Of a stretch of DNA of 52,040 bases, positions 5,368-41,726 are shown one piece after another. The stretch's first letter is position 1; the number at the start of each line of letters is the position of its first letter. The DNA lies in NCBI GenBank assembly GCA_964645905.1, contig CAZYBR010000002.1, forward strand, positions 1-52,040, in the 5' to 3' direction. This DNA comes from an uncultured archaeon. GTDB lineage: Archaea > Aenigmatarchaeota > Aenigmatarchaeia > CG10238-14 > SCSR01. A model generated the notes under the pieces. It had not been told where the DNA came from and did not search any database. It saw nothing but the letters and a program-made list of their open reading frames with translations. Position numbers and translations under genes: made by a program.

Positions 5368-5374
5368 ACACTGT

Positions 5375-10648: not shown

Positions 10649-10665
10649 TACAACATCTCAGCAGG

Positions 10666-12287: not shown

Positions 12288-12325
12288 AGGTTAAATTACC
12301 CCAAATAGTATATAGAAGGAATATT

Positions 12326-13903: not shown

Positions 13904-13932
13904 CCTAAAATTTAGTAGATATATAAGATTTC

Positions 13933-15441: not shown

Positions 15442-15493
15442 CTACCGTCGTAACAACTAATTTAAAAGACTTCAAGTTTATCTTAATGATTAG

Positions 15494-16471: not shown

Positions 16472-16946
16472 ATTCGAGCTTTGATAAATAATTTTTTATA
16501 ATATCTGGTATTCTAGATTCAGAACCTCTTTGTCTCGGTTTGAATGCTTTTACTCTCTCCACAGCTTTAGAAAGATTCTTTAGACTATAAACTGCTATTA
16601 TCCTGCCCTTCTTTTCCAATTCCCTGGTGGTGAATATTTGATGACGGTCCAGATGCTCGTTATATTCTGGCAGTCTAGGTACAACTATAATGGTTTTGTT
16701 CAGTTCCAATCCAGTCATTATAGACCCCACACCACCGTGCGAAATTATGAAATCTGCTTTTTTTTGCAATTCCAGCATCTTTTCAAATTCTAGAAACCTA
16801 AACCATTTGTAATTTTTAGGAATATAGTTAGAGTGTCCTATCTGAGCCACTACAACCTGTATTTTGCCATTCGCAACCATTATATCCAGTCCTTTCAACA
16901 GCCTATCAAATATGCGGTCATGTGTACCGACAGTTACGAATATCAA
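16455..16946 (-). CDS. Alg13-like glycosyltransferase subunit (GT28 C-terminal domain)
   Basis: 163 aa: MIFVTVGTH..FDRL at the N-terminus and ISHGGVGSIMTGL nucleotide-sugar loop. There is a 4-nt overlap with the upstream Alg14-like gene. Confidence 0.7.
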   Translation of the reverse strand: MIFVTVGTHDRIFDRLLKGLDIMVANGKIQVVVAQIGHSNYIPKNYKWFRFLEFEKMLELQKKADFIISHGGVGSIMTGLELNKTIIVVPRLPEYNEHLDRHQIFTTRELEKKGRIIAVYSLKNLSKAVERVKAFKPRQRGSESRIPDIIKNYLSKLESNLNV

Positions 16947-17401
16947 AGCAACTGACCTCCATATATTGCCTTGTCACCGTAGAATTTTTCCAATTTCTCC
17001 CACTGGATTATGAACAAGTCAGAAATGTGGTAGACTATTCTTCCAGTCAATGAAGGTTTGTCTATTCTAGAGAAAGTTTCAATAAAAATTATTTTTGATC
17101 TGAAAAGGATCTTCGCCATGAAGCACAGAGGTACTACAAGACCTGCTCCAGTAGTGATTACCACTTGGGGCCTCTCCTTAAGTAAGACAAACAATGTCCT
17201 GATCGAGTGAGTGACAAATTTCAACGGGTTTCTTCCAGGGTTGTCAACGAGATACAATTTATAATTTTTGAGTACATTCCTCATATGCGAAGCCGGTGTA
17301 ACAAAAAACAGCTTATGTTTTTTCAATATAGGAAGTATTTTCATCAGTTGGTTGAAATGGCCACCTGAGCTTGCAGTCAAACAAATCTTCATTTCTATCA
17401 A
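16943..17401 (-). CDS. Alg14-like oligosaccharide biosynthesis subunit
   Basis: 152 aa with CLTASSGGHFNQL (the SGGH motif of Alg14/PssD/CpsF-type proteins). No N-terminal TM anchor is visible. Confidence 0.65.
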   Translation of the reverse strand: MIEMKICLTASSGGHFNQLMKILPILKKHKLFFVTPASHMRNVLKNYKLYLVDNPGRNPLKFVTHSIRTLFVLLKERPQVVITTGAGLVVPLCFMAKILFRSKIIFIETFSRIDKPSLTGRIVYHISDLFIIQWEKLEKFYGDKAIYGGQLL

Positions 17402-17485
17402 TATAGACTCTTATCGCAAGAGTTATAAATTTAAGTCGAATGAAGGTCAATAGGTGTAAATAAAGTTACTTACAAAGGTCATTTT

Positions 17486-18580
17486 ATGAAAATATGCCAT
17501 TTGGGAGATGCTAGTGTCATCCATACGTGGAGATGGGTAGACGCTATGGAAAAGAAAGGTCACGAGACCCATTTGATTAGCTTGAATCCACCTCGAGAAG
17601 AATTCCAAAACCCGAATGTCAAAATCCATATTATACCAAAAAAGAATCTCAGAAATCCAATAAATCTGATTTTGACAGTCCTTAAAATAAGAAAACTTGT
17701 CAGAGAAATAAACCCTGATTTGGTAGATGCCCACTATGTGACCCATTACGGATTCTTTGCAGCTATGACCGGCAAACCTTACATATGTTGCGCTTGGGGG
17801 AGTGATGTAGTAGTTATGCCTAAGAAATCTAGAATAATCAAAACTGTGACAAAATATACGCTAAAGAGATCCTTGGCTGTCACATGCGACGCATATCATA
17901 TGGCAAAAGCGATTGAAGATCTTGGAGTCGGCAAAGACAAGATAAAATTGATTTATTACGGCGTAGATTTGAACAAGATAAATCCCGACAAATATAGAGA
18001 GACCTTCAAGAGAGTTGATGGCCGTCCTGCTGTGGTTACAGTGAGGGGGCTGGAGCCGCGTTATGACACAGAGACAATAATAAAGTCTATCCCGAATGTG
18101 CGAAGGGAATTTCCTGATGTACGGTTTATAATTATCGGAGACGGCAGTCAAAGGCAGTATTTAGAAGATCTCGCAAAATCACTGAACTGCTCACAGAATG
18201 TCCAATTCTTGGGAAGACTGCCAAACGAAAGGTTGCCTGAATTTTTTGTTCAGTCAGATGTTTATGTATCTACCTCTTTGGCAGATGGTGGGCTCGGTGC
18301 CGCTACAGCAGAAGCAATGACATGCGAAATGCCGGTTATAGTGACAAATTTCGGCGACAACAGGGTGTGGGTCGATGACGGGAAGAACGGATTCGTAATA
18401 GGACCTCAGGACAATGAAGCATTGTCATTGAAAATCATAGAACTATTGAAAAACAAGCCTATGAGGGAAGAAATGGGTAAAATGAACAGGGAAATAATCA
18501 GGACTAGGTTGAATGCAGAGACAGAGATGGCGAAATTGGACAAGCTTTATAAAGATGTCGTGGCCAATCTCAAAAAATAA
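17486..18580 (+). CDS. GT4-family (GT-B fold) glycosyltransferase
   Basis: 364 aa. The C-terminal half carries the EGLGAATAEAMTCEMPVIVT-type E-x7-E region typical of GT4 retaining transferases. Confidence 0.75.
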   Translation: MKICHLGDASVIHTWRWVDAMEKKGHETHLISLNPPREEFQNPNVKIHIIPKKNLRNPINLILTVLKIRKLVREINPDLVDAHYVTHYGFFAAMTGKPYICCAWGSDVVVMPKKSRIIKTVTKYTLKRSLAVTCDAYHMAKAIEDLGVGKDKIKLIYYGVDLNKINPDKYRETFKRVDGRPAVVTVRGLEPRYDTETIIKSIPNVRREFPDVRFIIIGDGSQRQYLEDLAKSLNCSQNVQFLGRLPNERLPEFFVQSDVYVSTSLADGGLGAATAEAMTCEMPVIVTNFGDNRVWVDDGKNGFVIGPQDNEALSLKIIELLKNKPMREEMGKMNREIIRTRLNAETEMAKLDKLYKDVVANLKK

Positions 18581-31782: not shown

Positions 31783-33972
31783 TCAGCTTGTAACAGTCGT
31801 AGTTGAAGTATCGTTATATAAAGTCGAATTGACTGTATGCTTTACCACATAGATATTTGAATTTGTGTAATTGTTCTGGATTATGATAAAGACCGATTCA
31901 GAATTATTCAATGTAGTCTGCTGAATTGAAGAAATATTCTGTTCTCCTGTGTCAATGCTCCAAGATATGTTTGTCAGGCCCAAGTTATTTATCGTAACTA
32001 TTTCGGATATCGTATTATTCTGATTTTCGAACAGGGTCAGATGTCTTAGGATTTCTATCACCTTTACAAGTATCCTGTCCGCAAATGAAGTCGTAAAAGT
32101 ATTGTTGTAAGCTGTTATCTGCGGTTTGTTTATTCCTTGTGCAGTATAATTGTTGACTATCAACACTAAGACAGATTCCCCAGATGTTATATTAGTGACA
32201 TTATTGCTTACCACTGAAGGATTTGTTGCATTCCAATTGATGCTCTGGTTTTCTGGCCAGTTGTTCTTTATGAAGAATTGCAGAAGTCGGTTTGTAGCCG
32301 TCAGATTGATGCTGTCAAAGTCATTTATCCTTATGGCTTCCAGTGTCAGCGATTCATTGTAATAATCTGTAATGCTGCCTGAAGTTATGTTGATTATCAC
32401 TTCCTTTCTGCCGTCAGTAGAATAGTTTATCGTCTGCGACACAAGCGATGTCCCATTTGTGCCTAATGTCGATGTAGTGTTTGTGAACGTCTGTCCGTCG
32501 CTTGCTATGTACCATTCCACAGCTGAAGGCATCCAGTAGTTTTTTATTGTAAAGTTGACCATGCGTGTGTTCTCGTCTATCGAAGTGCTGTTGTAGTTTT
32601 CTATCTTTATTCCCTTGATTTCAAATTCTATCGATTCGGTATCATTGCCGTCAACCGAAGTTGTAGTGCACGAGAATGTCTTTATTCCAGGCGATGAATA
32701 GTTGTTGCTCATTGTATCTACCCTGCTGGCATTTCCTGTCAAGGTGAACGGTCCTCCAGTCAATCCTTCGCTGCACGACCAGTTAATGTTCTGTGAAGTG
32801 TCGTTCATGTTGCCCAGTATCCCAAGCTTGAATGTTATGTTCGATGTGTTCATGTTGCTTATTGTAAGATTACTTATAACAGCGCCGAATTTGATTGTAA
32901 CATTCTCAAAATCAATAGAGTTTATTGAAGACTTGCCGGTTACATTGATCCGATAACTTCCGGCATTGTTATAATTATAACCCGCTATTACCCAAATAGT
33001 CTCATTGCTTGTCAGATTGAAAGCTACGGTCGAGTTGACCTTGTTCGAACTTTCAAAGTCCACGCTCCAGTTCGCATTTGTTATTGTAGAGTTCTTTTCA
33101 TTTGAAAGGAAGAAGCTTATTATTCTTTGCTTTGCATTCGAATAAAGCTCTTTCAATTTGTTTACATCCGTTCCTGCATCGTTTGTTATTATCTTTGATG
33201 GTGCATGTACAGGACTACTGCCGTAGACAAACTTTGTAGTGTTTACATTATCCCCGACTATCTTGAGTATGCTTCCTATCTCGTTGTAGGAATAAACGTA
33301 ATTGATTCCTCCTATGCTTGCATTCGTTAATCTGTCCAAGAAATCGTAACTCATATTATACAGCCTGCCGTTGGCAGAATCATTTATTCTTATTATGTTG
33401 CCTATTGCATCGTATGAGTAGCTCAAGTTCTGGAGGTTCCCTGTCTTGATTTCGTTTATCCTGCCTTTATTGTCATAACTGAATTCTGACAGCTTGCTGC
33501 TATTGTATGTCCTGTTCGAAGGATTGCCGAAAGCATCGTGGGACGTGGAATTTACAAAACCGATTATTTTATTAATCTTGCTTTGATTGTCATATGTATA
33601 ATTTAGGTTTGTGCCAGGTGTGAATACTTGTTTCGCTATCCTGCTCATCGAATCATAATGAATAGTTCTGGCGAAGACAATACCGTCTATAATTTTTGTC
33701 TCATTCGTCAGTCTAAGTTTATCGTCATAGCCGTATTTGTAAGTAGAATTACCGAAAGTTATATTTGCTAAAGTCCCTTCGTATTGGTCGTCGTACGAAT
33801 ATGTTATGTTTGTTGTCGTCCCATTCTTGATTAAGATTCTGTTTAGTGAATCGTATGTTATATTCACCTGGTTTGTCGCAGAATTATAAGTAATGTCTTG
33901 AGTAGACGCTGATGTTATTTGTACAATGATTACAAGCGATAAAATTATAATTAATGGTAGTCTAATTTTCAT
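31783..33972 (-). CDS. Secreted surface protein: signal peptide + YD repeats + sequon-rich Ig-like repeat region
   Basis: Signal peptide MKIRLPLIIILSLVIIVQITSAS. At least six YD-type repeats (YSYDDQ, YGYDDKLRL, YTYDNQSKI, FSYDNKGRI, YSYDAIGNI, MSYDFLDRL). These are followed by about 480 aa of repeated beta-rich modules with very many N-x-S/T sequons. Confidence 0.7.
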   Translation of the reverse strand: MKIRLPLIIILSLVIIVQITSASTQDITYNSATNQVNITYDSLNRILIKNGTTTNITYSYDDQYEGTLANITFGNSTYKYGYDDKLRLTNETKIIDGIVFARTIHYDSMSRIAKQVFTPGTNLNYTYDNQSKINKIIGFVNSTSHDAFGNPSNRTYNSSKLSEFSYDNKGRINEIKTGNLQNLSYSYDAIGNIIRINDSANGRLYNMSYDFLDRLTNASIGGINYVYSYNEIGSILKIVGDNVNTTKFVYGSSPVHAPSKIITNDAGTDVNKLKELYSNAKQRIISFFLSNEKNSTITNANWSVDFESSNKVNSTVAFNLTSNETIWVIAGYNYNNAGSYRINVTGKSSINSIDFENVTIKFGAVISNLTISNMNTSNITFKLGILGNMNDTSQNINWSCSEGLTGGPFTLTGNASRVDTMSNNYSSPGIKTFSCTTTSVDGNDTESIEFEIKGIKIENYNSTSIDENTRMVNFTIKNYWMPSAVEWYIASDGQTFTNTTSTLGTNGTSLVSQTINYSTDGRKEVIINITSGSITDYYNESLTLEAIRINDFDSINLTATNRLLQFFIKNNWPENQSINWNATNPSVVSNNVTNITSGESVLVLIVNNYTAQGINKPQITAYNNTFTTSFADRILVKVIEILRHLTLFENQNNTISEIVTINNLGLTNISWSIDTGEQNISSIQQTTLNNSESVFIIIQNNYTNSNIYVVKHTVNSTLYNDTSTTTVTS

Positions 33973-33989
33973 AGAATCCTCTTGAAGTA

Positions 33990-34180
33990 ATTCTCATCAA
34001 TTCCTTGAACGGAGTGTAGATTGTAGTGTTGGCAGAATCGTTGCGCATTATCTTGATTCTTATTCCGAACGGGTCATAGGTGTAGTTCTCAAGTTGCGGT
34101 GACACCACTGAACTTACATTACGAATAATTGTCAACTGATTCAATTCATTGTATTCACGGTAATAACCATCGCTAGTAAC
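33990..34180 (-). pseudogene. Orphan rhs-core fragment (duplicate of 35907..36097)
   Basis: 191 nt with 152/191 identical positions by my ungapped hand alignment, including a 34-nt perfect run, to an internal part of the large RHS gene. It encodes SDGYYREYNELNQLTIIRN...YTPFKELMRI, then diverges and stops. Confidence 0.7.
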
Positions 34181-34232
34181 TTTTAACCCAATCTTTTTAA
34201 CTAGTCTAAACCAAATAATATTTGTTGACGCA

Positions 34233-34436
34233 ATGAAAGAAGACTCTAAGAAACTCACCATTGCAGAACAAATAGTATTGGTGGCATTTGCTGTTGGTGG
34301 ATATATGATACTGAAAAATATAGCCGAATTATATTTAGGAATTACTGGTGTTTTGGTATGGGTTATTTCAGGCGCTATTGGTGGTGCTATAGGTTGGTTA
34401 GTTTTGAAGGTATTCAAAACGATAAAGAAAAAGTGA
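34233..34436 (+). CDS. Small two-TM glycine-zipper membrane protein
   Basis: 67 aa: charged ends (MKEDSKK... / ...KTIKKK) and two hydrophobic helices (IVLVAFAVGGYMIL; GVLVWVISGAIGGAIGWLVL). It is more protein-like than the antisense 181-aa ORF, whose N-terminus is a Pro-rich mirror of the Gly codons. Confidence 0.5.
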   Translation: MKEDSKKLTIAEQIVLVAFAVGGYMILKNIAELYLGITGVLVWVISGAIGGAIGWLVLKVFKTIKKK

Positions 34437-34506
34437 TAAGATTTATTCTCAGTTATAAAGTTCTTTTCGTTTGAGTCACTTGATAAATTGAATAAAATTT
34501 GTTTCA

Positions 34507-34842
34507 TCAGTTAGAACCTCCATACCATTCACAAAACTCATCAACATATGTAGAAAAAACTTTCTTTTGTTTTTCGTTTTTAAATCTGGCAGAAATAATA
34601 ACTGCATTATGAGTAAAAATTAAATCTATATCAAAATTTACATTTTTGTAGTTCTCTAATATATCTTCAAACTTTGTTATATCGGTTTTGTAAAATTTAT
34701 CATCTGTAAGATATAAATTATAACTGAAACCACATTTTGACAGTAAATTGCCTAAAAATTCTCTTAACTTCTTATTCTTTTCTATAGTAATAGCCAATTT
34801 ATTTTTATCACGCTTCATCCCTAATATTTTAGGTTTTTCCAC
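34507..34842 (-). CDS. Putative immunity protein of the RHS toxin
   Basis: 111 aa, cytoplasmic-looking. Its GTG start is preceded by GGAGGTG at 5-nt spacing. It overlaps the last 14 nt of the toxin gene, which is the position typical of polymorphic-toxin immunity genes. No family recognised. Confidence 0.55.
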   Translation of the reverse strand: MEKPKILGMKRDKNKLAITIEKNKKLREFLGNLLSKCGFSYNLYLTDDKFYKTDITKFEDILENYKNVNFDIDLIFTHNAVIISARFKNEKQKKVFSTYVDEFCEWYGGSN

Positions 34843-37800
34843 TTAACCACCTCCAAATATTTTCTAATATGTTTGATTGTCCGTTTGATTGTTCTATAGT
34901 ACGGCTATATATTTCCGTTCGATACTCGCCAGTTTCTGGATACGTTCTAACAGTTCCATGGATCTTAACAGGACCGCTTTTATCCACGACAATTGTATCA
35001 TGATAATCTCCACTAAATGTTTTACCTTGTGGTGTAGTCATAGGTTTAGGTAATATGTCCGGATTAGTACTCATGGCTAGTGGACTACTTTTACTTACTT
35101 TGAAGTCAGATGGCTTATTAGAAATAGTTGATACAGATGTAAACATTTTATTCACACCGTATCCTAATGCCGCTCCTCCACCCCCGCCAAGCCCTTCTAT
35201 GAGCAAATCTTTAGGCTGTCCTAATCCTTGAGTTAAGGGCATTCCCGTTATGAAATTCCCACCAGCTATACTAGTTTGTCCACCAGCAATTCCCGCACCT
35301 GCTCCAGATAAAACTGTGGCGCCGAATCCAGTTCCAAATACAGCAGTACCTGCACCGAATGTTAACCCACCTATACCACCAGCGACAGCACTTACACCTA
35401 CTTCACTCCAACTAACTTTGCTCAAATCACCATTATTATGCCAAAGCTGTACCCCAAGATCAATTCCACCACCGATAAGTGCTCCTGCAGCTGCGGCTAT
35501 GCACATCGGACAATTGCCGCTCGAATCTGTGTATTTGTAAGGATTATTTAATCCATACGAAAATCTATTCAAACCTTGAGGATTGTAGAAGCTTTGATAA
35601 CTGTCTGATTGTGTAAATATTCCTAAACACGGGTTGTAATACCTCGCACCGTAATAATACTCACACGAAAAGTCTTTGAACTGACTTGTATAAAGTTTTA
35701 CATCAGCCGTTCCACCACCAAGCAACTCCCCATAAGGACTATAGAACGTATTCTCAACTACATTCCCATTCTGGTCTGTTATCAATGATGTGGAGCCTAG
35801 ATGGTCGGAATGGTAATAATATTTAGAAGCGTCTGGATTCACTCGTGCAACTAGTGTATTTCCGTCATAGATGTAAGTGAAATCATAATTTCCTGACGAG
35901 TTTACTATTCGCATTAATTCTTTGAACGGCGTGTAGATTGTAGTGTTGACTGTATCGTTGCGCATTATCTTGATTCTCTGTCCGAATGGGTCGTATGTAT
36001 AATTTTCCAACTGTGGCGATGTTATTGTAGAACCATTACGAATAATTGTCAACTGATTCAATTCATTATACTCACGATAATAACCGTCACCTGTTACTAA
36101 ATTCCCTCCACCATTCTGCACCTGCCTAATCAAGTTTCCAATCAAGTCATACGTGTAACTCCAATTTCCCAAATCTGGGTCTTGCAATGATATTCTTCTA
36201 CCGAGAGAGTCGTATCCAAATATAAAATTATTACCCAAAGCATCTGTAATTTTAATCAGATTGTCTGCTGTGTCATAATTATAATTTGTAGTGTATATGT
36301 CAATCTCGAAATTGAAATGCAGAACAGGATTATTATTGTATTCAAGAACATTAATTATTCTTCCATATGAATCGGTTACATATGTCTTCATGTGACCGTT
36401 CTCGTCATATGCTGTAACATTCCAATGATTGAAAGTAATATTTGTTGTGTTCCCGTCTGGATTTCTCACCGAGATTACACGTGATAAAGTATCATAGGTA
36501 TAATTGATGAAATCGGAATTATGAGTTGTTGTTAATCCTGCTGATGTTGGAGCAAAGTAAGGATTGCTCTCTGCTCTAACCCTTTCCATTCCGTCATAAA
36601 AGAGATTCTTCACAATTTGTTGGTTACCATCACTAGGTTTCTTAAATTGAATAAAATTACCCAACCCATCATAGTAAAAGTAAGTATCAAAGGTCTTGTT
36701 GGCTGTTGTTCTTTGCGAAATCTTAATCGATTCAGGCGCGGTTCCGTCAAAAGAATAATTGTAACTCTTTGTAGGCAGTTCATTCGAATCAAACGGCTGT
36801 ATCTCTTTAATCAATCTCCCGAATGTGTCATAAACGAAGTAAGTGTATATCCCATTCTGCTTCTTCCACAGCAAATTTCCAGTCCCTAAATCATACTTAA
36901 AGTCGGTCTGGTGATCCAATGCATTTGTTATCTTGTCGACGAAAGTGAATGTAGTATCTCTTAGTCCATATGTGTAACTGGTTTCACGATAAAGTGGATC
37001 TGTAACACGAATAACATTACCAAACCTGTCATATTCAAACCTTGTAATAGGATTAGCTCCTTTATCATTCCAATTCTCGACAGCAGTGACATCCCCTTTG
37101 GTAGCATTCCTGCCGTAAACCTGACCATCATAATGATACTTCGTTTCGCGAACCTTCTGATTATTAGAATCAAACAACAAATACCAGCTTAACTTGTCGA
37201 CAATCCATGCACTCGTATTGATAACATAAGAATAATTCTCGTACTTCTCGTCGCCTGTGGCATTCACATCGCCGAGGAAACTGCGGTAAATAACATTACC
37301 GAAACTATCATAAGAGTAAGTCACATTAGTTACCTTGGGATTGCCGACAGCACCATCGTGCAGATAATTAGTCTGAGAGACAGTGAAAACCTTGAAATAG
37401 CCAGCACTTGCATTAGTGTAATTGAACAGAGCTTCATCCCTTGTGAAAATATTACCAGAAGAATTGTAGATTGTAGTATTGTATTCCTTACCTTTCAATA
37501 TCTCGTCCTGATAAAATCTATGCGATATGATTGAACTGTCCGGCAAAGTTTCATTGACAATAGAGAATCCCCTGAAATCTTTTTCCTCGTAATCATACTT
37601 GCCGTCTGAGTAATTGTAGGAATAATTAAAGAAAGATGTGAAAGGCCCAGTAAGGGAATTGTTGTAGCTGACATTCTTTACAACAAACATGTTGAATCCG
37701 ATGTCGGAGACGGAGTCATTGCCGGCATTGTCAAAGTTGGTAGAATTAGCATAAGACACGGAAATAATCCTTCCAAGCTCTGTGGTGATGCTTCTAAGCA

Positions 37801-39655
37801 TGTAAGGCGTTGATGTATTCCTTGTCCACACAAAAAGTTCAGTCGTCCCGTTCGGATAACGGTGCGCGACTATTATTCCAGCAAATCCATCTCCATTGAT
37901 GTCGGCCAGTCTTCTTCCTATGTTCCTGCCGTCTCTTGTGAAAGGCTCTGGTGACTGCCATGTATTGTTCTGTGTCCATCCTACTCCATTATTTATCCAT
38001 GCTCCTCTTTCTGTTGTGCTCGCATTCAGATAATCCACAGTAATGTCAGTTAGACCATCTCCATTCACATCATTGAATCTCACCCCGTTGTCAGGCCTTG
38101 CGGTTGTGGTGAATGCGACTGGAGGGTTCCAATTCGGAGAGCTTGTCCAACCATTTGCATTGTTAATCCACACGTTCTTGACAACGGAACCAAAATCAGA
38201 GCTTTCTATTATATCGGGCAATCCGTCTCCGTTCAAATCTTCAATTCTTGCGCCGGTGTCCTTGTCGGCATAGAAAAATGTCGGCGATGTCCATTCGCTA
38301 CTTACATCTTCCCATCCTACTCCATTATTGCGGTATGCCTTCTTTATATTTGCTCCGCCGTTATTGTGGGCTTGAAGAATGTCTACCTTTCCGTCACCGT
38401 CAAAATCAACCAATTGCACACCCTGATCTGCACCAGCGGAAATAAATGATATCGGAGGCGCCCATTGGCTGATGATAGTCCACCCAATACCATTGTTATA
38501 CCACGCAGCTTTTGTAGAGTTGATGCCTTGAAGCATGTCTACTAGACCATCGTTGTTGAAATCAACAAATCTTATTCCGTTATCAGAAGCAGTGACATCG
38601 ACAATAAATTCCGGGGCAGAGAAAAGATTTGACGACACCCAACTTCCTTTCTTGTCATTAATCCATACATTTTTCACGCTTCCTGCAAATTCTGATTGAA
38701 TGATATCAAGAAAACCATCATTATCCAAATCCACAGTCCTGATTCCTTTATCCGAACCATCAACTGAAAACGAAACTGGCGGAGTCCATACCGATGTCTG
38801 CTTTACATAGTTTGTGATATCGGGATAATAATCGAATGTTATCTGGTGAAGGACGGAGGAATTATCGGCTCCTATGAATTTTATTTTTGCCAATGACGAC
38901 AATGATTTCTCAGAATTAAGGTTTCCATATTCAAACTGATATGTTCTTACTAAGATGTTGTCGACAGAAATGTTGATACTCGAAAGCCTTCTAGTCTCGT
39001 TCAGTTTGTTCCCTTGGTCATAAACAGTTCTCAAATCTGGTCTGCTAGAGCTTTCATATACGAAATCTATATTCCTTTTTCTGTCATTGTTGTAAATTAT
39101 CTGAGACGGATATGAAGTTCCACTATCCCCAGAATTTGGATCTTCCAGATAAGAATAAAATATTTTGTTGTCATGTGCATCAGTTACTTGATCAAGGCTC
39201 CATCGCAACGCATAAGATTTTCCTGTATTGGATGTTAATTCTGAATCGCTGTTGTAACCGAATCTGAATTGAGTCCCATCTTTTGTAGTTACAACCCAAT
39301 ATCCACTATATGTATTTGGCGCACCTGTGAGGTTCTGTATTCTTAGGAATGATTCAATTTTAGTGTGATAAAAAGTATCGTTTTGGTCGTAAACAAACTC
39401 GTAAGAACCACCGTTGAATACCAACATGAACCTGTCATCTGTTGTATTATCTGGAGTCGAGTTGACATCGCGGTAGATATAGTTTTGTGAAATCGACCAA
39501 CCGGCACCGATTATTCCAGGTCGCTGTTTAACCGATTGACTGTTGTAATTTATCGAAATGAACGGTTGTAGATTGTTAGTTCCTTTTGGAACCTCTATCG
39601 CATAAGTGTATGTCGCAGCTCCTGGAAATAAATTCGTCTGATAGCTTCCGTACAA
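34829..39655 (-). CDS. Tc-toxin BC-fusion-like polymorphic toxin: SpvB/TcB N-domain + FG-GAP beta-propeller + RHS/YD-repeat shell + C-terminal cargo
   Basis: 1608 aa from the TTG at 39655. SpvB-type N-terminus (GAATYTYAIEVPKG...PFISINYNS...GAGWSISQNYIYRD). Six D-x-[DN]-x-DG-x-x-D propeller blades. Dozens of YD repeats. RHS core end YYHSDHLGS...GARYYNPCLGIFTQSDS...NRFSYGLNNPYKYTDSSGN, then a 227-aa C-terminal region. An in-frame upstream extension to 39811 encodes a signal peptide (see findings). Confidence 0.85.
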   Translation of the reverse strand: MYGSYQTNLFPGAATYTYAIEVPKGTNNLQPFISINYNSQSVKQRPGIIGAGWSISQNYIYRDVNSTPDNTTDDRFMLVFNGGSYEFVYDQNDTFYHTKIESFLRIQNLTGAPNTYSGYWVVTTKDGTQFRFGYNSDSELTSNTGKSYALRWSLDQVTDAHDNKIFYSYLEDPNSGDSGTSYPSQIIYNNDRKRNIDFVYESSSRPDLRTVYDQGNKLNETRRLSSINISVDNILVRTYQFEYGNLNSEKSLSSLAKIKFIGADNSSVLHQITFDYYPDITNYVKQTSVWTPPVSFSVDGSDKGIRTVDLDNDGFLDIIQSEFAGSVKNVWINDKKGSWVSSNLFSAPEFIVDVTASDNGIRFVDFNNDGLVDMLQGINSTKAAWYNNGIGWTIISQWAPPISFISAGADQGVQLVDFDGDGKVDILQAHNNGGANIKKAYRNNGVGWEDVSSEWTSPTFFYADKDTGARIEDLNGDGLPDIIESSDFGSVVKNVWINNANGWTSSPNWNPPVAFTTTARPDNGVRFNDVNGDGLTDITVDYLNASTTERGAWINNGVGWTQNNTWQSPEPFTRDGRNIGRRLADINGDGFAGIIVAHRYPNGTTELFVWTRNTSTPYMLRSITTELGRIISVSYANSTNFDNAGNDSVSDIGFNMFVVKNVSYNNSLTGPFTSFFNYSYNYSDGKYDYEEKDFRGFSIVNETLPDSSIISHRFYQDEILKGKEYNTTIYNSSGNIFTRDEALFNYTNASAGYFKVFTVSQTNYLHDGAVGNPKVTNVTYSYDSFGNVIYRSFLGDVNATGDEKYENYSYVINTSAWIVDKLSWYLLFDSNNQKVRETKYHYDGQVYGRNATKGDVTAVENWNDKGANPITRFEYDRFGNVIRVTDPLYRETSYTYGLRDTTFTFVDKITNALDHQTDFKYDLGTGNLLWKKQNGIYTYFVYDTFGRLIKEIQPFDSNELPTKSYNYSFDGTAPESIKISQRTTANKTFDTYFYYDGLGNFIQFKKPSDGNQQIVKNLFYDGMERVRAESNPYFAPTSAGLTTTHNSDFINYTYDTLSRVISVRNPDGNTTNITFNHWNVTAYDENGHMKTYVTDSYGRIINVLEYNNNPVLHFNFEIDIYTTNYNYDTADNLIKITDALGNNFIFGYDSLGRRISLQDPDLGNWSYTYDLIGNLIRQVQNGGGNLVTGDGYYREYNELNQLTIIRNGSTITSPQLENYTYDPFGQRIKIMRNDTVNTTIYTPFKELMRIVNSSGNYDFTYIYDGNTLVARVNPDASKYYYHSDHLGSTSLITDQNGNVVENTFYSPYGELLGGGTADVKLYTSQFKDFSCEYYYGARYYNPCLGIFTQSDSYQSFYNPQGLNRFSYGLNNPYKYTDSSGNCPMCIAAAAGALIGGGIDLGVQLWHNNGDLSKVSWSEVGVSAVAGGIGGLTFGAGTAVFGTGFGATVLSGAGAGIAGGQTSIAGGNFITGMPLTQGLGQPKDLLIEGLGGGGGAALGYGVNKMFTSVSTISNKPSDFKVSKSSPLAMSTNPDILPKPMTTPQGKTFSGDYHDTIVVDKSGPVKIHGTVRTYPETGEYRTEIYSRTIEQSNGQSNILENIWRWLSGKT
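35907..36097 (-). repeat. Master copy of the 191-nt rhs-core segment duplicated at 33990..34180
   Basis: Direct (same-orientation) repeat about 1.9 kb from its copy. It encodes aa 1189-1250 of the RHS protein. Confidence 0.8.
37871..38731 (-). repeat. Six FG-GAP/VCBS-type propeller repeats inside the RHS gene
   Basis: DLDNDGFLD, DFNNDGLVD, DFDGDGKVD, DLNGDGLPD, DVNGDGLTD and DINGDGFAG recur every 52-56 aa (aa 309-595). Confidence 0.8.
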
Positions 39656-39821
39656 TTTTACTTTAGGATGTTCTGGAACATTCGCCTTGTGGAGATACGG
39701 CTTGTAAGAATCATCGACAGCTGCAAGAACCGACTGGATATTTATTATAAATAACGATAAGGATACGGTTATAATTATAAAAACTTTTTTATTTGATGTA
39801 ATAGCACTGATATGCTCACCA

Positions 39822-41726
39822 CTAAGACGTTTTCGTCTGGTTTATGAACGCACTGACCCTTTGTGCAATAACATTGTTAGTCGTCAAGTTTTGCATTTCC
39901 AGCACATAGAAAGCAGGCGTAATGTTCGGCATGTTAGTTAACGTGTCACTTCCTGTAAGATAATTAAACGCCCATATCTGACCACCGTACTTTACGACTT
40001 TGTCGAAGCTTGACAACTGTTGGTAATTGCTAAGGTTTCTTAGATAAATTTTTTGATCGCTGTATATAGGAACGCTTACAAGCGAACTCAGAATACCGTT
40101 TTCCATTGAAGTTCTTGCACTGCTTTCATTAGTTGTAGAAATAGAATCCTGAACCAGACCGGATGCGATTCCATAATTATAGCTTGCCCTTATCCAATCA
40201 TCACTTGGGTCAACAGAATCATAAAACCTGAATTCATCGATTAGACCTGTAATATATCCCCCACCGGCCTGATGGCTTGCGATAAATAGATTGCTCATTG
40301 GAAATTGTGGTGTCCCAATTGATGTATCACTACCGGCAAGACTGCCATTGACATAGATATACATACCGGTATTGTTTTTCTTGCAGAATACATGTACCCA
40401 TGTGTTTGCAGGTGGATTAGTTGCAGACGCCATGCTATTAGTCCAACTTCCATCGTAGAACGCACAGTTCAGTTTATCATTTGCTGCAGGATCGCCAAAT
40501 GCGATCAGATACTGTGGTTCCTTTTTGACTATATAACCGGTATTTGCATCCAAATACATCCAAAATTCTATTCCAAATGGGCTTGAGCTACTTTGAATAG
40601 CAATTGATGCAGAATGGTTTACTTCAATATTGTCACCTGAACCGTCGAATCTCAATGCTCTTCCAAACTTGCCGTCCTGCCATGTCGGGTTCCCAGTAAT
40701 GGCACCATTGTTGACATTTCCCGTACTGTCCTTGACCAATGAACCTCCGTCTTCCTTGAAATGAAGAACCATCCCAAAATCAGAACTCCAAGTAGTTGTT
40801 GTACTGTTGTAGAAATTTGTTTCATCAGGGTTGTTGTAATACCAACTTAGAATGCTGTCATTGTTATTGCTCAATACGTCCATTTTTGTCCATAGTATAC
40901 TCTTAGCGGCATTACAGCCATAAGTTCCATTGTTGTATATTTCCCATTCGAAATTCTGTTTTGCGTCCGAGCCATTCAGAACCTGCACATCTTTGCAATC
41001 AGATTTCATAGAACCGCCTGATACAAGATTAGCTGTATCCCAGAAACTACCATTAATTGGATGCGGAAACTTGTACAGGTTACCACCAGCGATACTATAA
41101 ACTGTTTCATTTGCTCTTAACCCGTATGTCGTGTTCCACCATGCCCATTTGCTCTGCTCATATGCGTTGCTATTTACAGTTATCTGCGGAAACCATTCCC
41201 TGTTATTGGATCCCAATTTCGGTGTCCAGTGTGCGATAATCTTTATTCTTGCCGTCTGATTAGGATTAAGGGCTATCGAATTGAGGGGTACGAATCCACT
41301 CTTTGTAATATTATTCCAATGCCATCCAGAAGCCTGAGTTGTACAATTGCTTACAGAAAATGTTCCGCTTACATTAGTCACCTCAAAAGTATTGCATGTG
41401 GTCGAATAGTCAGTGACATTAGTAGAATACATGATATTTTTCTCGACAAAGAATTCAGTTGATTTAAGTGGTGTAGTCTCCTGCCCCCCGTTTTGGAACC
41501 GCAAACTCAAGATGTTAGCATTTATGTTGATTGTCGCTGGTGTAGGATTCTTTAGGTCGAATATCGCAGTACCTTGTGAAATTTCTGCCTTATTTTCTAC
41601 CAAATTGACAAAGAAGTCGTCTGCTATAAGAGTGGTCTGAGAAAGAGTCGGAATCAAGAATGCGAGAGAAGCAACGGCAAATACGGCTAATAGAACAACC
41701 AAACTTGCAGTTGTCAAAGCCTTCAT
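39822..41726 (-). CDS. Secreted/anchored DUF2341 + LamG (concanavalin A-like lectin) domain protein
   Basis: 634 aa. Hydrophobic N-terminus MKALTTASLVVLLAVFAVASLAFLI. A DUF2341-like block (WAWWNTTYGLRANETVY...). A Laminin_G_3-like block (LHFKEDGGSLVKDSTGNVNNGAITGNPTWQDGKFGRALRFDGSGDNIEV...WVHVFCKK...LIDEFRFYD). Confidence 0.65.
   Translation of the reverse strand: MKALTTASLVVLLAVFAVASLAFLIPTLSQTTLIADDFFVNLVENKAEISQGTAIFDLKNPTPATININANILSLRFQNGGQETTPLKSTEFFVEKNIMYSTNVTDYSTTCNTFEVTNVSGTFSVSNCTTQASGWHWNNITKSGFVPLNSIALNPNQTARIKIIAHWTPKLGSNNREWFPQITVNSNAYEQSKWAWWNTTYGLRANETVYSIAGGNLYKFPHPINGSFWDTANLVSGGSMKSDCKDVQVLNGSDAKQNFEWEIYNNGTYGCNAAKSILWTKMDVLSNNNDSILSWYYNNPDETNFYNSTTTTWSSDFGMVLHFKEDGGSLVKDSTGNVNNGAITGNPTWQDGKFGRALRFDGSGDNIEVNHSASIAIQSSSSPFGIEFWMYLDANTGYIVKKEPQYLIAFGDPAANDKLNCAFYDGSWTNSMASATNPPANTWVHVFCKKNNTGMYIYVNGSLAGSDTSIGTPQFPMSNLFIASHQAGGGYITGLIDEFRFYDSVDPSDDWIRASYNYGIASGLVQDSISTTNESSARTSMENGILSSLVSVPIYSDQKIYLRNLSNYQQLSSFDKVVKYGGQIWAFNYLTGSDTLTNMPNITPAFYVLEMQNLTTNNVIAQRVSAFINQTKTS

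What the first reader, a model, noticed from the sequence alone, without database searches (positions are those of the whole stretch)
34507..39655. Archaeal Tc-toxin-like BC fusion (SpvB + six-blade FG-GAP propeller + RHS cocoon) with an overlapping immunity gene and no TcA
One ORF combines three parts. (1) An SpvB/TcB-type N-terminal domain (PGAATYTYAIEVPKG..PFISINYNS..GAGWSISQNYIYRD). (2) Six regularly spaced D-x-[DN]-x-DG-x-x-D FG-GAP blades at aa 309-595; in Photorhabdus/Yersinia TcB this propeller gates the cocoon and docks onto TcA. (3) About 750 aa of YD repeats ending in the RHS core terminus YYHSDHLGS...ARYYNP.LG.F...D...NPYKYTDSSG, followed by a variable tip. A 111-aa gene overlapping the last 14 nt, with its own GGAGGTG ribosome-binding site inside the toxin gene, is in the canonical immunity position. 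This is the full toxin-encapsulating BC architecture in an archaeal genomic context, but no TcA-like translocator, PAAR/VgrG or other known delivery module is in the window. RHS-type polymorphic toxins have been predicted computationally in archaea but, to my knowledge, none has been characterised. How an archaeon would export and deliver an encapsulated toxin across an S-layer is unknown.
Basis: partly seen in the sequence, partly recalled or inferred. Interest (0 to 1): 0.8.

Follow-up and report, generated by a model that had tools for sequence, protein, structure and literature searches.

The report
Secreted archaeal RHS toxin with immunity gene
A small (DPANN-type) archaeon encodes a secreted protein cage of the kind insect-killing bacteria use to hold a toxin, followed by a likely antidote gene; the design was described in 2012 and has many relatives in public archaeal genomes, but no archaeal example has been tested.

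Summary
One minus-strand gene combines an SpvB domain, a six-bladed FG-GAP propeller, a YD/RHS shell, an RHS core end and a 227-aa variable tip. An overlapping 111-aa gene follows. Predicted structures match TcB and TcB-TcC best. The contig is archaeal.

Three corrections lower the novelty:
- The gene starts about 156 nt further upstream. The in-frame extension encodes a Sec-type signal peptide and a motif conserved in relatives, but has no ATG/GTG/TTG. Export is therefore probably by Sec.
- [quoted passage not shown] is the TcdB/TcaC class of polymorphic toxins (Zhang et al. 2012, Euryarchaeota listed). At least 378 relatives exist, many named Woesearchaeota, Nanoarchaeota, Pacearchaeota or Altiarchaeota.
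- The tip has two parts: a roughly 125-aa Gly/Ala-rich hydrophobic module, weakly similar to the pore-forming Tse5-CT, and a roughly 100-aa unknown domain.

The 111-aa protein co-varies with the tip in two relatives and is missing in a third. Tips are polymorphic and orphan cassettes occur. Two partner genes are conserved: a lectin-like protein and a secreted YD+repeat protein. In 41 of 120 relatives that second protein is fused in place of the toxin.

Verdict: a real new member of a known kind. Delivery is unknown. Interest is moderate.

The parts
39822..41726 (-). Upstream partner gene (634 aa). It has an N-terminal hydrophobic signal or anchor, a weak DUF2341 match, a Laminin_G_3 domain and a conserved C-terminal segment of about 100 aa. 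Its stop codon lies 10 nt before the proposed RHS start.
   Evidence: Pfam Laminin_G_3 at 2e-18 and DUF2341 at 0.03. Relatives of the whole protein or of its last ~100 aa lie next to the RHS gene in L002, L003, L004, L006, L088, L089 and L090. N- and C-terminal motifs are conserved.
39815..39820 (-). GGTGAG, a Shine-Dalgarno-like site directly after the stop codon of the upstream gene.
   Evidence: Read from the sequence. The GGTG lies 5 nt before ATC 39811, the same GGTG-to-start spacing as at the 111-aa gene.
39722..39811 (-). Proposed true 5' end of the RHS gene: a Sec-type signal peptide, (I/M)SAITSNKKVFIIITVSLSLFIINIQSVLA|AVDD. No ATG/GTG/TTG is present. Candidate starts are ATC 39811 and ATT 39802.
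   Evidence: The frame is open for 62 codons upstream of the TTG. Close relatives carry a hydrophobic leader followed by A|(A/V)DDSYKPY. Of 120 relatives, 94 have the YKPYLH motif and 88 of those have a hydrophobic leader. The maximum Kyte-Doolittle score (15-aa window) is 2.57.
38756..39721 (-). Mature N-terminus (conserved DDSYKPYLHKANVPEHPKVK) and the SpvB/TcB-type N-terminal domain, which forms the first part of the shell.
   Evidence: Pfam SpvB at aa 12-180, E 4.9e-12. Foldseek matches TcB chains and the SpvB N-terminal domain 6p0x_A (E 1.5e-11).
37784..38743 (-). Six-bladed FG-GAP (integrin-like) beta-propeller, ORF aa 305-624.
   Evidence: FG-GAP_3 in 4 stretches at 5e-19. DSSP on the AF2 model shows six four-stranded blades. 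The model superposes on TcdB1, TcdB2 and YenB with TMq up to 0.75.
35819..37783 (-). TcdB_toxin_midN region and YD/RHS repeat shell, ORF aa 625-1279.
   Evidence: TcdB_toxin_midN at 1.5e-24, RHS_repeat, YD_repeat_2x. The AF2 shell has pLDDT mostly 80-94. The best fold match is TcdB2-TccC3, E 5e-26.
35513..35818 (-). RHS-associated core end, YYHSDHLGS...ARYYNP...QSD...NPYKYTDSSGN. It holds R1338, D1351 and D1377. The predicted autoproteolytic cut is N1381|C1382.
   Evidence: Rhs_assc_core at 4e-10. The residue-by-residue alignment to TccC3 (...RYYQP...SSDP...LLDPDGL|MP), YenC2 and RHS2 has E 3e-5 to 5e-4. D1351 and G1380 are invariant and D1377 is at least 90% conserved in the 42-sequence alignment.
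35138..35512 (-). Tip part 1: a Gly/Ala-rich hydrophobic module of about 125 aa (40% G+A, 13 small-xxx-small-xxx-small motifs, helical in the model).
   Evidence: Composition. A profile search finds 389 proteins in which only this module is shared. It sits between an RHS core end and varied C-terminal domains (Tox-REase-9, Tox-MPTase5, HINT). It is weakly similar to Tse5-CT 8cp6_C (E 1.3e-5; an independent profile gives 26 bits).
34832..35137 (-). Tip part 2: a linker and a C-terminal domain of about 100 aa of unknown family (GDYHD..VD.SG..IHGT...Y...WL). This is the presumed effector domain. It has no N-x-S/T sequons.
   Evidence: No Pfam or NCBIfam match. The motif recurs in the aligned P0004 and P0030 tips and in P0164. 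The AF2 model shows beta-beta-beta-alpha but with pLDDT below 50.
34507..34842 (-). 111-aa candidate immunity gene. It overlaps the RHS gene by 14 nt, starts at a GTG 5 nt after GGAGGTG, encodes a soluble protein and has 25% G+C.
   Evidence: Homologues follow RHS genes with related tips: L001/L087 (38% identity, E 7e-21) and L004 (24% identity, E 2e-6). The family is small, with 4 clusters. No homologue is present in L084.
34182..34506 (.). AT-rich spacer (31% G+C). It holds a 67-aa ORF with two hydrophobic, Gly-rich segments on the opposite (+) strand at 34233-34436. Its status is unknown.
   Evidence: No relative in the fetched loci. Only a weak DUF6518 match at 0.007. Not similar to a small membrane ORF in L001.
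33990..34181 (-). Orphan RHS fragment, a duplicate of 35907-36098 (ORF aa about 1186-1249, GDGYYREYNELNQL...TPFKELMRI). It ends at the ribosome-binding region of the next gene.
   Evidence: Direct repeat D1: 192 nt, 80% identical. L003, L004 and L089 carry longer orphan RHS pieces at the same position.
31783..33972 (-). Downstream partner gene (729 aa): a signal peptide, about 230 aa of YD repeats ending in ...SSPVHAPSKI, then about 460 aa of repeated, sequon-rich beta-type modules (7.1 sequons per 100 aa).
   Evidence: RHS_repeat at 1e-5. Homologues follow the RHS/immunity pair in L001, L002, L003, L084, L088, L089 and L090 (42-72% identity over the N-terminal 270 aa). The same sequence is fused to the shell in 41 of 120 relatives.

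Best explanation
This is a Sec-exported, single-chain TcB-TcC-like RHS polymorphic toxin of a DPANN-type (Woesearchaeota-like) archaeon, followed by its cognate immunity gene and flanked by two conserved secreted partner genes.

Shown in silico:
- The genes LamG-like partner, RHS, 111-aa gene, orphan fragment and YD+repeat partner run in one direction with 10-nt gaps or overlaps.
- The RHS precursor carries a cleavable signal peptide.
- The mature protein folds like TcB plus TcC: an SpvB start, a six-bladed propeller and a YD shell.
- The core end keeps the Arg/Asp/Asp of the TcC/Rhs aspartyl autoprotease.
- The C-terminal 227 aa are a swappable cassette.

Inferred:
- The tip is cut after N1381 and stays inside the shell.
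- The protein is exported by Sec and N-glycosylated on the outside. The shell has 40 sequons and the tip has none.
- It is presented at or released from the cell surface, possibly with the lectin-like and YD+repeat partners.
- On contact with a target cell, the Gly/Ala-rich hydrophobic module (Tse5-CT-like) inserts into the target membrane. It then either carries the C-terminal domain of about 100 aa across or forms a leak itself.
- The soluble 111-aa protein neutralises the C-terminal domain in the producer and its kin.
- New tips are acquired by recombination in the conserved GDGYYREYN...ELMRI stretch, which leaves orphan fragments.

The identity of the targets (kin, host archaea or bacteria) and the trigger that opens the shell are unknown.
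For: - Domains.
- Structure: N-terminal model with pLDDT 91, best matches TcdB1, TcdB2 and YenB at TMq 0.68-0.75. C-terminal shell best matches TcdB2-TccC3.
- Autoprotease residues aligned to TccC3, YenC2 and RHS2 and conserved in the family.
- Signal peptide: open frame, leaders in homologues, 88 of 94 motif-bearing relatives with a hydrophobic leader.
- Polymorphism: 36 toxin-type relatives carry tips in 22 unrelated clusters. A few match known toxin-type families (DUF4258, an AHH-like nuclease hit as DUF2380, a zincin).
- Orphan cassettes in the window, L003, L004 and L089.
- Immunity: translational coupling, co-variation with the tip and atypical 25% G+C.
- Tip anatomy: the hydrophobic module is shared by 389 proteins and precedes nuclease, peptidase or HINT domains, with a median of 106 aa after it. 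Similarity to pore-forming Tse5-CT (and PMC10684867).
- Sequon distribution.
- Archaeal context.
- The class is defined in the literature.
Against: - No canonical start codon precedes the signal peptide. Translation from ATC or ATT is unproven, and from the called TTG the protein would lack its leader.
- One relative with a 40-49% identical tip (L084) has no homologue of the 111-aa gene anywhere on its 6.7-kb contig.
- As far as I recall, the only characterised relative of the hydrophobic module (Tse5-CT) is neutralised by a membrane protein, whereas the 111-aa protein is soluble.
- The C-terminal domain and the 111-aa protein match no known family, and the tip model has low confidence.
- Many relatives (41 of 120) carry no toxin at all, so the scaffold has a function apart from toxin delivery.
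- No delivery step is supported by data. Nothing here is experimental.
Confidence: 0.7

Rival explanations
1. The scaffold is mainly a teneurin-like surface or adhesion protein, for example for attachment of a DPANN cell to its host. The toxin cassette in this copy is a secondary, possibly decaying, insertion.
For: 41 of 120 relatives end in the YD+repeat tail instead of a core end and tip. They are colinear with the window's RHS residues 1 to about 1250 plus the separate 729-aa gene. The shell and partners are rich in N-glycosylation sequons, and the locus sits in a glycosylation cluster. Lectin-like partners are conserved. A canonical start codon is missing, and an immunity gene is missing in L084.
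Against: The window copy keeps the R/D/D autoprotease residues, an intact open frame of 1660 codons, a co-varying coupled downstream gene and a conserved leader. Tips are highly polymorphic and orphan cassettes occur, which is the signature of toxin/immunity arms races.
Confidence: 0.12
2. It is the BC part of a true three-component Tc (ABC) toxin, and its TcA translocator is encoded elsewhere in the genome.
For: TcB and TcB-TcC are the best structural matches, including the propeller that binds TcA in Photorhabdus and Yersinia. Only about 52 kb of this genome, and ±5-10 kb of the related ones, could be inspected.
Against: No TcA-sized gene lies in the window or in nine related archaeal loci. 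The protein has a Sec signal peptide, which TcB proteins lack as far as I know. Zhang et al. 2012 treat SP+SpvB+propeller proteins as a trafficking class of their own. A 33%-identical relative on a contig titled 'uncultured Gammaproteobacteria' (L007, with an Ntox33 tip) also has no TcA within the ±10 kb held. Related contigs of about 0.8 Mb suggest very small genomes.
Confidence: 0.04
3. The hydrophobic Gly/Ala-rich module is itself the toxin: a Tse5-CT-type pore former that depolarises the target. The 111-aa protein is then not the immunity factor; a membrane protein would be, or there is none.
For: Profile similarity to Tse5-CT (E 1.3e-5, and 26 bits with an independent profile). Tse5-CT inserts spontaneously into membranes and forms ion-conducting pores (PMC10684867). 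A two-hydrophobic-segment ORF lies just downstream, on the other strand. L084 lacks the 111-aa gene.
Against: In 96 of 102 proteins the module is followed by at least 50 more residues, often nucleases or peptidases that must reach the cytoplasm. This fits a carrier role. The 111-aa protein tracks the divergence of the tip. The similarity to Tse5-CT covers only about 55-80 positions and carries a high composition bias.
Confidence: 0.2
4. The gene is inactive in this genome: the start codon is lost and it is on the way to becoming a pseudogene.
For: No ATG/GTG/TTG precedes the leader, whereas the closest relative has a TTG there. A degraded orphan fragment and an odd spacer lie downstream.
Against: The 1660 codons have no stop. 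The 52 codons upstream of the called start are open (about 1.6% expected by chance for the 62 codons back to the stop, my estimate from base composition) and encode a motif of which 19 of 20 residues match the closest relative. A GGTGAG site is correctly placed. ATC and ATT are permitted starts in translation table 11 (own knowledge). A sequencing error is also possible.
Confidence: 0.1

Closest known systems
TcB-TcC cocoon of Tc (ABC) toxins: Photorhabdus TcdB2-TccC3 and TcdB1-TccC2, Yersinia YenB-YenC2/RHS2
   Same: Same order of parts: SpvB-type start, inserted six-bladed propeller, TcdB mid-N region, YD shell, and a core end with the Arg/Asp/Asp autoprotease followed by a cargo of about 200 aa. 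These are the best structural matches (TMq up to 0.75 for the N-terminal half, 0.45 for the C-terminal half) and the best sequence matches for the core end.
   Different: This is one chain of about 1630 mature residues instead of two chains totalling about 2150. It has a Sec signal peptide. No TcA was found nearby. A downstream immunity-type gene and orphan cassettes point to use between microbes rather than against animals. Sequence identity is only 10-16%.
'TcdB/TcaC' trafficking class of polymorphic toxin systems (Zhang, de Souza, Anantharaman, Iyer, Aravind 2012, PMC3482391)
   Same: The definition fits exactly: a signal peptide, an SpvB domain, an integrin-like beta-propeller, RHS repeats, a variable C-terminal toxin, a neighbouring immunity gene and spare cassettes. 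Euryarchaeota are listed among the carriers.
   Different: That survey predates DPANN genomes and called such systems rare in archaea. Here the family is large in DPANN MAGs, has lineage-specific partner genes, and most of its tips and immunity proteins match no described family.
Tse5 (PA2684) of Pseudomonas aeruginosa, a T6SS Rhs effector with the pore-forming Tse5-CT
   Same: An RHS shell with an autoproteolytically released, encapsulated hydrophobic C-terminal fragment. The first half of the window's tip module resembles Tse5-CT (AAIGAxxGAGIxLGxQ...NWxxVGxSAxxG).
   Different: Tse5 is delivered by the T6SS and has no SpvB domain or propeller. Tse5-CT is the whole 149-aa cargo, whereas here the module is followed by another ~100 aa. 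The similarity is weak and compositionally biased.
WapA of Bacillus subtilis (Sec-dependent, wall-associated Rhs toxin with a polymorphic tRNase tip and immunity gene; own knowledge)
   Same: Export by a signal peptide without a dedicated injection machine, an RHS shell, a polymorphic tip, an adjacent immunity gene, and contact-dependent inhibition of kin.
   Different: WapA has wall-binding repeats rather than SpvB plus a propeller. The target envelope and the toxin families differ. Not compared by sequence here.
Teneurins and bacterial teneurin-like YD-shell proteins
   Same: A YD shell with a C-terminal domain that leaves the shell. The 41 relatives with the YD+repeat tail, and the window's separate 729-aa gene, resemble this non-toxic, surface-protein use of the fold. 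Teneurins appear among the fold matches.
   Different: Teneurins have an FN-plug and an NHL propeller, not SpvB and FG-GAP. Their TM-scores are lower (0.16-0.29). The window copy keeps the autoprotease and a toxin cassette.

Membership tests
Tc toxin BC subunit (TcB-TcC) | SpvB-type N-terminal domain that starts the shell | tested here: met
   Pfam SpvB at E 4.9e-12. Foldseek matches to TcB chains and to 6p0x_A.
Tc toxin BC subunit (TcB-TcC) | Six-bladed beta-propeller inserted in the shell, plus the TcdB mid region | tested here: met
   Six four-stranded blades in the AF2 model. FG-GAP_3 and TcdB_toxin_midN. TMq 0.68-0.75 to TcdB1, TcdB2 and YenB. TcdB_toxin_midC was not detected by Pfam.
Tc toxin BC subunit (TcB-TcC) | RHS core end with an aspartyl autoprotease and an encapsulated hypervariable cargo | tested here: met
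   The alignment to TccC3 and YenC2 has R1338, D1351 and D1377 in place and these are conserved in the family. The tip is variable. Cleavage itself was not tested.
Tc toxin BC subunit (TcB-TcC) | Works with a TcA pentameric translocator encoded in the same locus or genome | tested here: not met
   No TcA-sized gene in the window or in nine related loci. The rest of the genome is not available.
Tc toxin BC subunit (TcB-TcC) | No Sec signal peptide; release by other means (own knowledge) | tested here: not met
   A hydrophobic leader with an A|A-type site is present in the window frame and in 88 of the 94 relatives that carry the N-terminal motif.
Polymorphic toxin system, TcdB/TcaC class (Zhang et al. 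2012) | Signal peptide + SpvB + integrin-like propeller at the N-terminus | tested here: met
   Definition.
Polymorphic toxin system, TcdB/TcaC class (Zhang et al. 2012) | Conserved scaffold with unrelated C-terminal toxin domains among close relatives | tested here: met
   36 tips fall in 22 clusters behind a conserved NPYKYxDxxG end.
Polymorphic toxin system, TcdB/TcaC class (Zhang et al. 2012) | Cognate immunity gene immediately downstream that changes with the toxin | tested here: inconclusive
   Homologues of the 111-aa gene follow related tips in L001/L087 and L004, and unrelated small genes follow unrelated tips. L084, which has a related tip, lacks the gene. Neutralisation was not tested.
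Polymorphic toxin system, TcdB/TcaC class (Zhang et al. 2012) | Orphan or spare toxin cassettes left by recombination | tested here: met
   Window repeat D1. L004 carries a 441-aa orphan with a full core end and another tip. L003 and L089 carry orphan fragments.
T6SS Rhs effectors | PAAR, prePAAR or VgrG N-terminal module, or linkage to a T6SS locus | tested here: not met
   No such Pfam or NCBIfam hits. T6SS Rhs structures superpose poorly on the N-terminal half (TMq 0.22 or less). No T6SS genes appeared among the window genes scanned.
Tse5-CT-type pore-forming toxins | Sequence relationship of the cargo to Tse5-CT | tested here: inconclusive
   E 1.3e-5 over profile positions 7-87. An independent 102-sequence profile gives 26 bits but with a bias of 9.4.
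Tse5-CT-type pore-forming toxins | Membrane insertion and ion conduction | not testable with these tools
   Needs bilayer electrophysiology or depolarisation assays.

The most novel reading that the evidence does not exclude
DPANN archaea possess a lineage-specific, TcA-independent surface system built from four co-inherited genes:
1. A lectin-like protein with a variable sugar-binding head (LamG, DUF2341 or discoidin) and a conserved tail of about 100 aa. The tail would dock on the cocoon, perhaps on its propeller.
2. The SpvB-propeller-YD cocoon.
3. An immunity gene.
4. A secreted YD+repeat protein.

The same cocoon exists in two interconvertible states. One is an adhesin-like form with the YD+repeat tail fused on. 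The other is a toxin form in which a core-end/tip/immunity cassette has been recombined in at the GDGYYREYN hot spot, splitting off the tail as a separate gene. If so, these small-genome archaea would switch one scaffold between attachment and killing. The lectin partner would replace the receptor-binding role of TcA, and the hydrophobic pre-toxin module would replace its membrane-translocation role.
Probability: 0.25. Interest if true: 0.7.

Novelty: new member of a known kind. Interest (0 to 1): 0.5.

Why it matters
No archaeal polymorphic toxin has been tested experimentally (PMC8416519), and how DPANN archaea interact with hosts and competitors is largely unknown. This locus gives a compact, complete test case:
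- a secreted TcB-TcC-like cocoon that needs no TcA;
- a toxin/immunity pair of unknown families;
- a widespread hydrophobic pre-toxin module that may explain how RHS cargo crosses a target membrane without an injection machine.

The switch between toxin-type and adhesin-type ends on one scaffold, and the conserved lectin-like partner, are testable leads for how very small archaea attach to or attack other cells. The architecture itself is not new, and relatives are already abundant and partly annotated in public data. The value lies in follow-up, not in discovery of a new kind of system.

Tried and rejected
- Exact look-up of the called 1608-aa product found no record.
- tRNA and Rfam scans of the window were empty.
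- A search with the 111-aa protein alone found only itself. A three-sequence profile added only two more clusters.
- Pfam and NCBIfam gave nothing for the tip, its last 93 aa, the 111-aa protein, or the C-terminal 459 aa of the 729-aa protein.
It returned mostly bacterial loci, so it sampled DPANN poorly. It did show full-length bacterial relatives (33-34% identity) and Woesearchaeota AR15.
- Makarova et al. 2019 (mBio, archaeal polymorphic toxins) is not in the library, so its treatment of such proteins could not be checked.
- The 'pore-forming toxins of Woesearchaeota' in PMC9723730 turned out to be tlyC haemolysin homologues and are unrelated.
- No paper in the library links DPANN or Woesearchaeota with RHS, YD or SpvB.
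- I considered the + strand 67-aa membrane ORF as a Tsi5-like membrane immunity gene. It has no relatives in the other loci and is not similar to a small membrane ORF in L001, so this stays open.
- I considered a type IV pilin-like signal on the lectin-like partner. The FlaFind-type pattern fits only the window copy, not its relatives, so I do not claim it.
- The idea that the contig is bacterial or chimeric is rejected: a PolD small-subunit gene plus PolB lie in the window, the window is syntenic with archaeal contigs, and G+C is even except in the cassette.
- The AF2 model of the tip is too uncertain (pLDDT below 50) to search for a toxin fold.

Full report
**What is in the sequence.** The minus strand holds an ORF at 34829..39655 (1608 aa from a TTG). 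A 111-aa ORF at 34507..34842 overlaps it over 14 nt; its GTG lies 5 nt after GGAGGTG. Pfam finds SpvB (aa 12-180, E 4.9e-12), FG-GAP_3 (four stretches, 5e-19), TcdB_toxin_midN (579-726, 1.5e-24) and RHS_repeat. NCBIfam finds YD_repeat_2x and Rhs_assc_core (1305-1380, 4e-10).

**Structure.** An AlphaFold2 model of the mature N-terminal 782 residues, built on a 46-sequence alignment, has mean pLDDT 91 and pTM 0.88. It shows six four-stranded blades, which correspond to ORF aa 305-624. Foldseek against the PDB ranks TcB subunits first: TcdB1 6l7i_F at E 3.4e-34 and TMq 0.75, followed by TcdB2 and YenB. T6SS Rhs proteins superpose poorly (TMq 0.22 or less), and the SpvB N-terminal domain 6p0x_A is also matched. 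A model of the C-terminal 969 residues has a confident YD shell and an uncertain tip (pLDDT below 50). Its best matches are TcdB2-TccC3 fusions (E 5e-26, TMq about 0.45), ahead of T6SS Rhs proteins and teneurins. The last 100 residues of the core align with TccC3, YenC2 and RHS2 (E 3e-5 to 5e-4). Window residues R1338 (ARYYNP), D1351 (QSD) and D1377 (YTDSSGN) sit opposite the RYYQP...SSDP...LLDPDGL|MP residues of TccC3. From my own knowledge, those are the catalytic residues of the TcC autoprotease. D1351 and G1380 are invariant and D1377 is at least 90% conserved in the family alignment. By homology the cut falls at N1381|C1382, which releases a 227-aa tip.

**The gene start was missed.** Upstream of the TTG the frame stays open for 62 codons and reads ...SGEHISAITSNKKVFIIITVSLSLFIINIQSVLAAVDDSYKPYLHKANVPEHPKVK-LYGSYQ. 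Every close relative begins with a hydrophobic leader followed by A|(A/V)DDSYKPYLH.A.VPEHPK.KLYG. Of 120 relatives, 94 have the YKPYLH motif, and 88 of those have a hydrophobic stretch before it. The window segment contains no ATG, GTG or TTG. The candidate starts are ATC (39811) and ATT (39802). A GGTGAG site directly follows the stop codon of the upstream gene, and its GGTG lies 5 nt before the ATC, the same GGTG-to-start spacing as at the 111-aa gene. The closest relative (L003) has a TTG at the equivalent place, giving MKIKLKTFILLVIIGTLTLVPSALA|VDDSF. I conclude that the protein is a Sec substrate whose start codon is non-canonical, mis-sequenced or lost.

**Host.** The window encodes a PolD small-subunit homologue next to a family B polymerase, together with many glycosylation genes. 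Related loci carry a histone, RadA with an intein, STT3, Cdc6/Orc1, aIF2 and class I LysRS. Named relatives come from Woesearchaeota, Nanoarchaeota, Pacearchaeota and Altiarchaeota MAGs. One lies on the chromosome of Archaeon GW2011_AR15, which PMC11537232 uses as a Woesearchaeota genome. G+C is even across the window except in the cassette. A bacterial mis-bin is excluded.

**How common it is, and what is known.** The protein search returned 378 relatives at E 1e-10 or better among the 8000 candidates scored. The best are 72% and 67% identical. Some are already named 'toxin TcdB middle/N-terminal domain-containing protein' or 'RHS repeat-associated core domain-containing protein'. Full-length relatives at 33-34% identity also occur on two contigs titled 'uncultured Gammaproteobacteria'. 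One of them (L007) carries an Ntox33 tip and has no TcA within the ±10 kb held. Zhang et al. [quoted passage not shown] PMC8416519 states that predicted archaeal polymorphic toxin systems had not been characterised experimentally. I found no paper in the library that links DPANN with RHS, SpvB or YD proteins. Makarova et al. 2019 could not be read.

**Polymorphism and immunity.** Among the 120 best relatives, 36 have the toxin-type end (NP....D..G) followed by 54-249 residues. These tips fall into 22 unrelated clusters. Only three of 24 scanned tips match Pfam families: DUF4258, an AHH-like nuclease detected as DUF2380, and a zincin. The window's tip clusters with those of P0004, P0005 and P0030. 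At the P0004 locus (L001, and again in L087) the overlapping downstream 122-aa gene is 38% identical to the window's 111-aa protein (E 7e-21). At the P0005 locus (L004), where the C-terminal part of the tip is more diverged, the downstream 122-aa protein is 24% identical (E 2e-6). Loci with unrelated tips have unrelated small genes. This is the expected behaviour of an immunity gene. Two caveats apply. The P0030 locus (L084) has a related tip but no such gene on its 6.7-kb contig. The family is also tiny, with four clusters, one of which stands alone in a glycosylation cluster. The 111-aa gene has 25% G+C against 39% for the window.

**Orphan pieces.** Window positions 33990-34181 duplicate 35907-36098 at 80% identity; this is the GDGYYREYN...ELMRI stretch. 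L004 has a 441-aa orphan with a full core end and a different tip, and L003 and L089 carry other fragments. All of them lie between the immunity gene and the next gene.

**Anatomy of the tip.** The first ~125 residues are 40% Gly+Ala and hydrophobic. The last ~100 residues have ordinary composition and carry the conserved motifs GDYHD, IHGT and WL. A profile of four tips, searched against 1.84 billion representative proteins, found 389 hits. In almost all of them only the hydrophobic module matched. In those proteins the module sits just after an RHS core end and before varied domains: Tox-REase-9 in P0121 and P0181, Tox-MPTase5 in P0125, and HINT domains in P0183 and P0230. In 96 of 102 proteins at least 50 residues follow the module, with a median of 106. 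The same profile matches the Tse5-CT chain 8cp6_C at E 1.3e-5. An independent profile of 102 module sequences gives 26 bits, although with strong composition bias. Tse5-CT is the pore-forming cargo of a Pseudomonas Rhs effector; it inserts spontaneously into membranes (PMC10684867). I therefore read the module as a membrane-inserting pre-toxin unit and the last ~100 residues as the effector that the soluble 111-aa protein neutralises. The alternative, that the module itself is the toxin, is kept as a rival.

**Conserved neighbours.** The 729-aa gene downstream (31783..33972) encodes a signal peptide, about 230 aa of YD repeats that end in SSPVHAPSKI, and about 460 aa of repeated sequon-rich modules. 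Homologues follow the RHS/small-gene pair in L001, L002, L003, L084, L088, L089 and L090. The 634-aa gene upstream has a hydrophobic N-terminus and a Laminin_G_3 domain. Its last ~100 residues (...KYG.Q.WAFNY...NITP..Y...FINQTK) recur in a neighbouring protein in L002, L003, L004, L006, L088, L089 and L090, behind different lectin-like heads (DUF2341, LamG, discoidin). Of the 120 relatives, 41 lack a toxin end and instead finish with a tail homologous to the 729-aa protein; none has both. These are colinear with window RHS residues 1 to about 1250 followed by residues 30-729 of the 729-aa protein, and the junction lies in the region that is duplicated as the window's orphan. The toxin form thus looks like a cassette recombined into an adhesin-like scaffold, or the adhesin-like form looks like a deletion fusion. 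I could not decide the direction.

**Other support for an extracellular cocoon with an internal cargo.** N-x-S/T sequons number 40 in the leader-plus-shell, 0 in the tip, 0 in the 111-aa protein, 52 in the 729-aa protein, 20 in the lectin-like protein and 7 in PolB.

**Verdict.**
This is a real archaeal TcB-TcC-like toxin cocoon with a probable immunity gene and no TcA. It is a member of an already defined class of polymorphic toxins, is probably exported by Sec, and has hundreds of relatives in public DPANN data.
- The unknowns are the start codon, the activity of the tip and of the 111-aa protein, the roles of the two partner genes, and above all the delivery step.
- Interest is moderate (0.5). 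The most novel reading still open is a DPANN-specific four-gene system that switches one scaffold between adhesion and killing.

Noticed in passing
window 39800-39824: The RHS gene has a conserved, in-frame signal peptide but no ATG/GTG/TTG to start it. Only ATC (39811) or ATT (39802) lie behind a GGTGAG site. The gene caller therefore started 52 codons too late, at TTG 39655.
   Followed up: yes
window 31783-33972; P0032, P0041, P0051, P0071, P0083: The separate 729-aa secreted YD+repeat gene is the same sequence that forms the C-terminal ~700 aa of 41 of 120 relatives (about 1830-1930 aa in the five members compared). Those relatives have no toxin end. One scaffold therefore exists in a toxin form and a tail-fused, adhesin-like form.
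   Followed up: partly
window 39822-40124 (last ~100 codons of the 634-aa gene); L002, L003, L004, L006, L088, L089, L090: A conserved C-terminal segment of about 100 aa (KYG.Q.WAFNY...NITP..Y...FINQTK) sits behind variable lectin-like heads (LamG, DUF2341, discoidin). It is always in a gene next to the RHS gene, so it is a possible docking domain.
   Followed up: partly
window 35138-35512; P0121-P0269: A Gly/Ala-rich hydrophobic module of about 130 aa recurs between RHS core ends and many different toxin domains (389 profile hits). It matches no Pfam family and is weakly similar to pore-forming Tse5-CT.
   Followed up: partly
window 34233-34436 (+): A 67-aa ORF with two hydrophobic, GxxxG-rich segments lies antisense to the operon in the AT-rich spacer between the 111-aa gene and the orphan fragment. 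No relatives were found, so it may be spurious or the remnant of a membrane immunity gene.
   Followed up: partly
window 34507-34842 and 34182-34506: The 111-aa gene has 25% G+C and the spacer after it 31%, against 39% for the window. This is consistent with a horizontally exchanged cassette.
   Followed up: yes
window 31783-41726: N-x-S/T sequons are dense in the predicted extracellular proteins (shell 40, 729-aa protein 52, lectin-like protein 20). They are absent from the 227-aa tip and the 111-aa protein. The locus lies inside a large glycosylation gene cluster.
   Followed up: yes
window 4303-8086: A short (354-aa) PolD small-subunit-like gene directly precedes a 903-aa family B DNA polymerase. 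The Cys-rich C-terminal ~30 residues of the polymerase match the C-terminus of the PolD large subunit (TIGR00354, E 2e-6). This pairing is reminiscent of a eukaryotic catalytic subunit with its B-subunit.
   Followed up: no
L088 11956-12385: An uncalled ORF of about 117 aa with two hydrophobic segments lies in the gap after P0022, whose tip is Gly-rich and likely membrane-active. It is a candidate membrane-type immunity gene, in contrast to the soluble one in the window.
   Followed up: no
L085 3272-3616, L086 889-1233: A homologue of the 111-aa protein (P0273, 26% identity) stands alone between sugar aminotransferase genes with no RHS gene nearby. It may be an orphan immunity gene.
   Followed up: no
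L006 (Archaeon GW2011_AR15, CP010425.1) 9935-18368: AR15 has a 1488-aa tail-type protein followed by RHS-like and second tail-like ORFs (430, 149, 149, 122, 379 and 446 aa). The locus looks rearranged, with duplicated tail segments.
   Followed up: no
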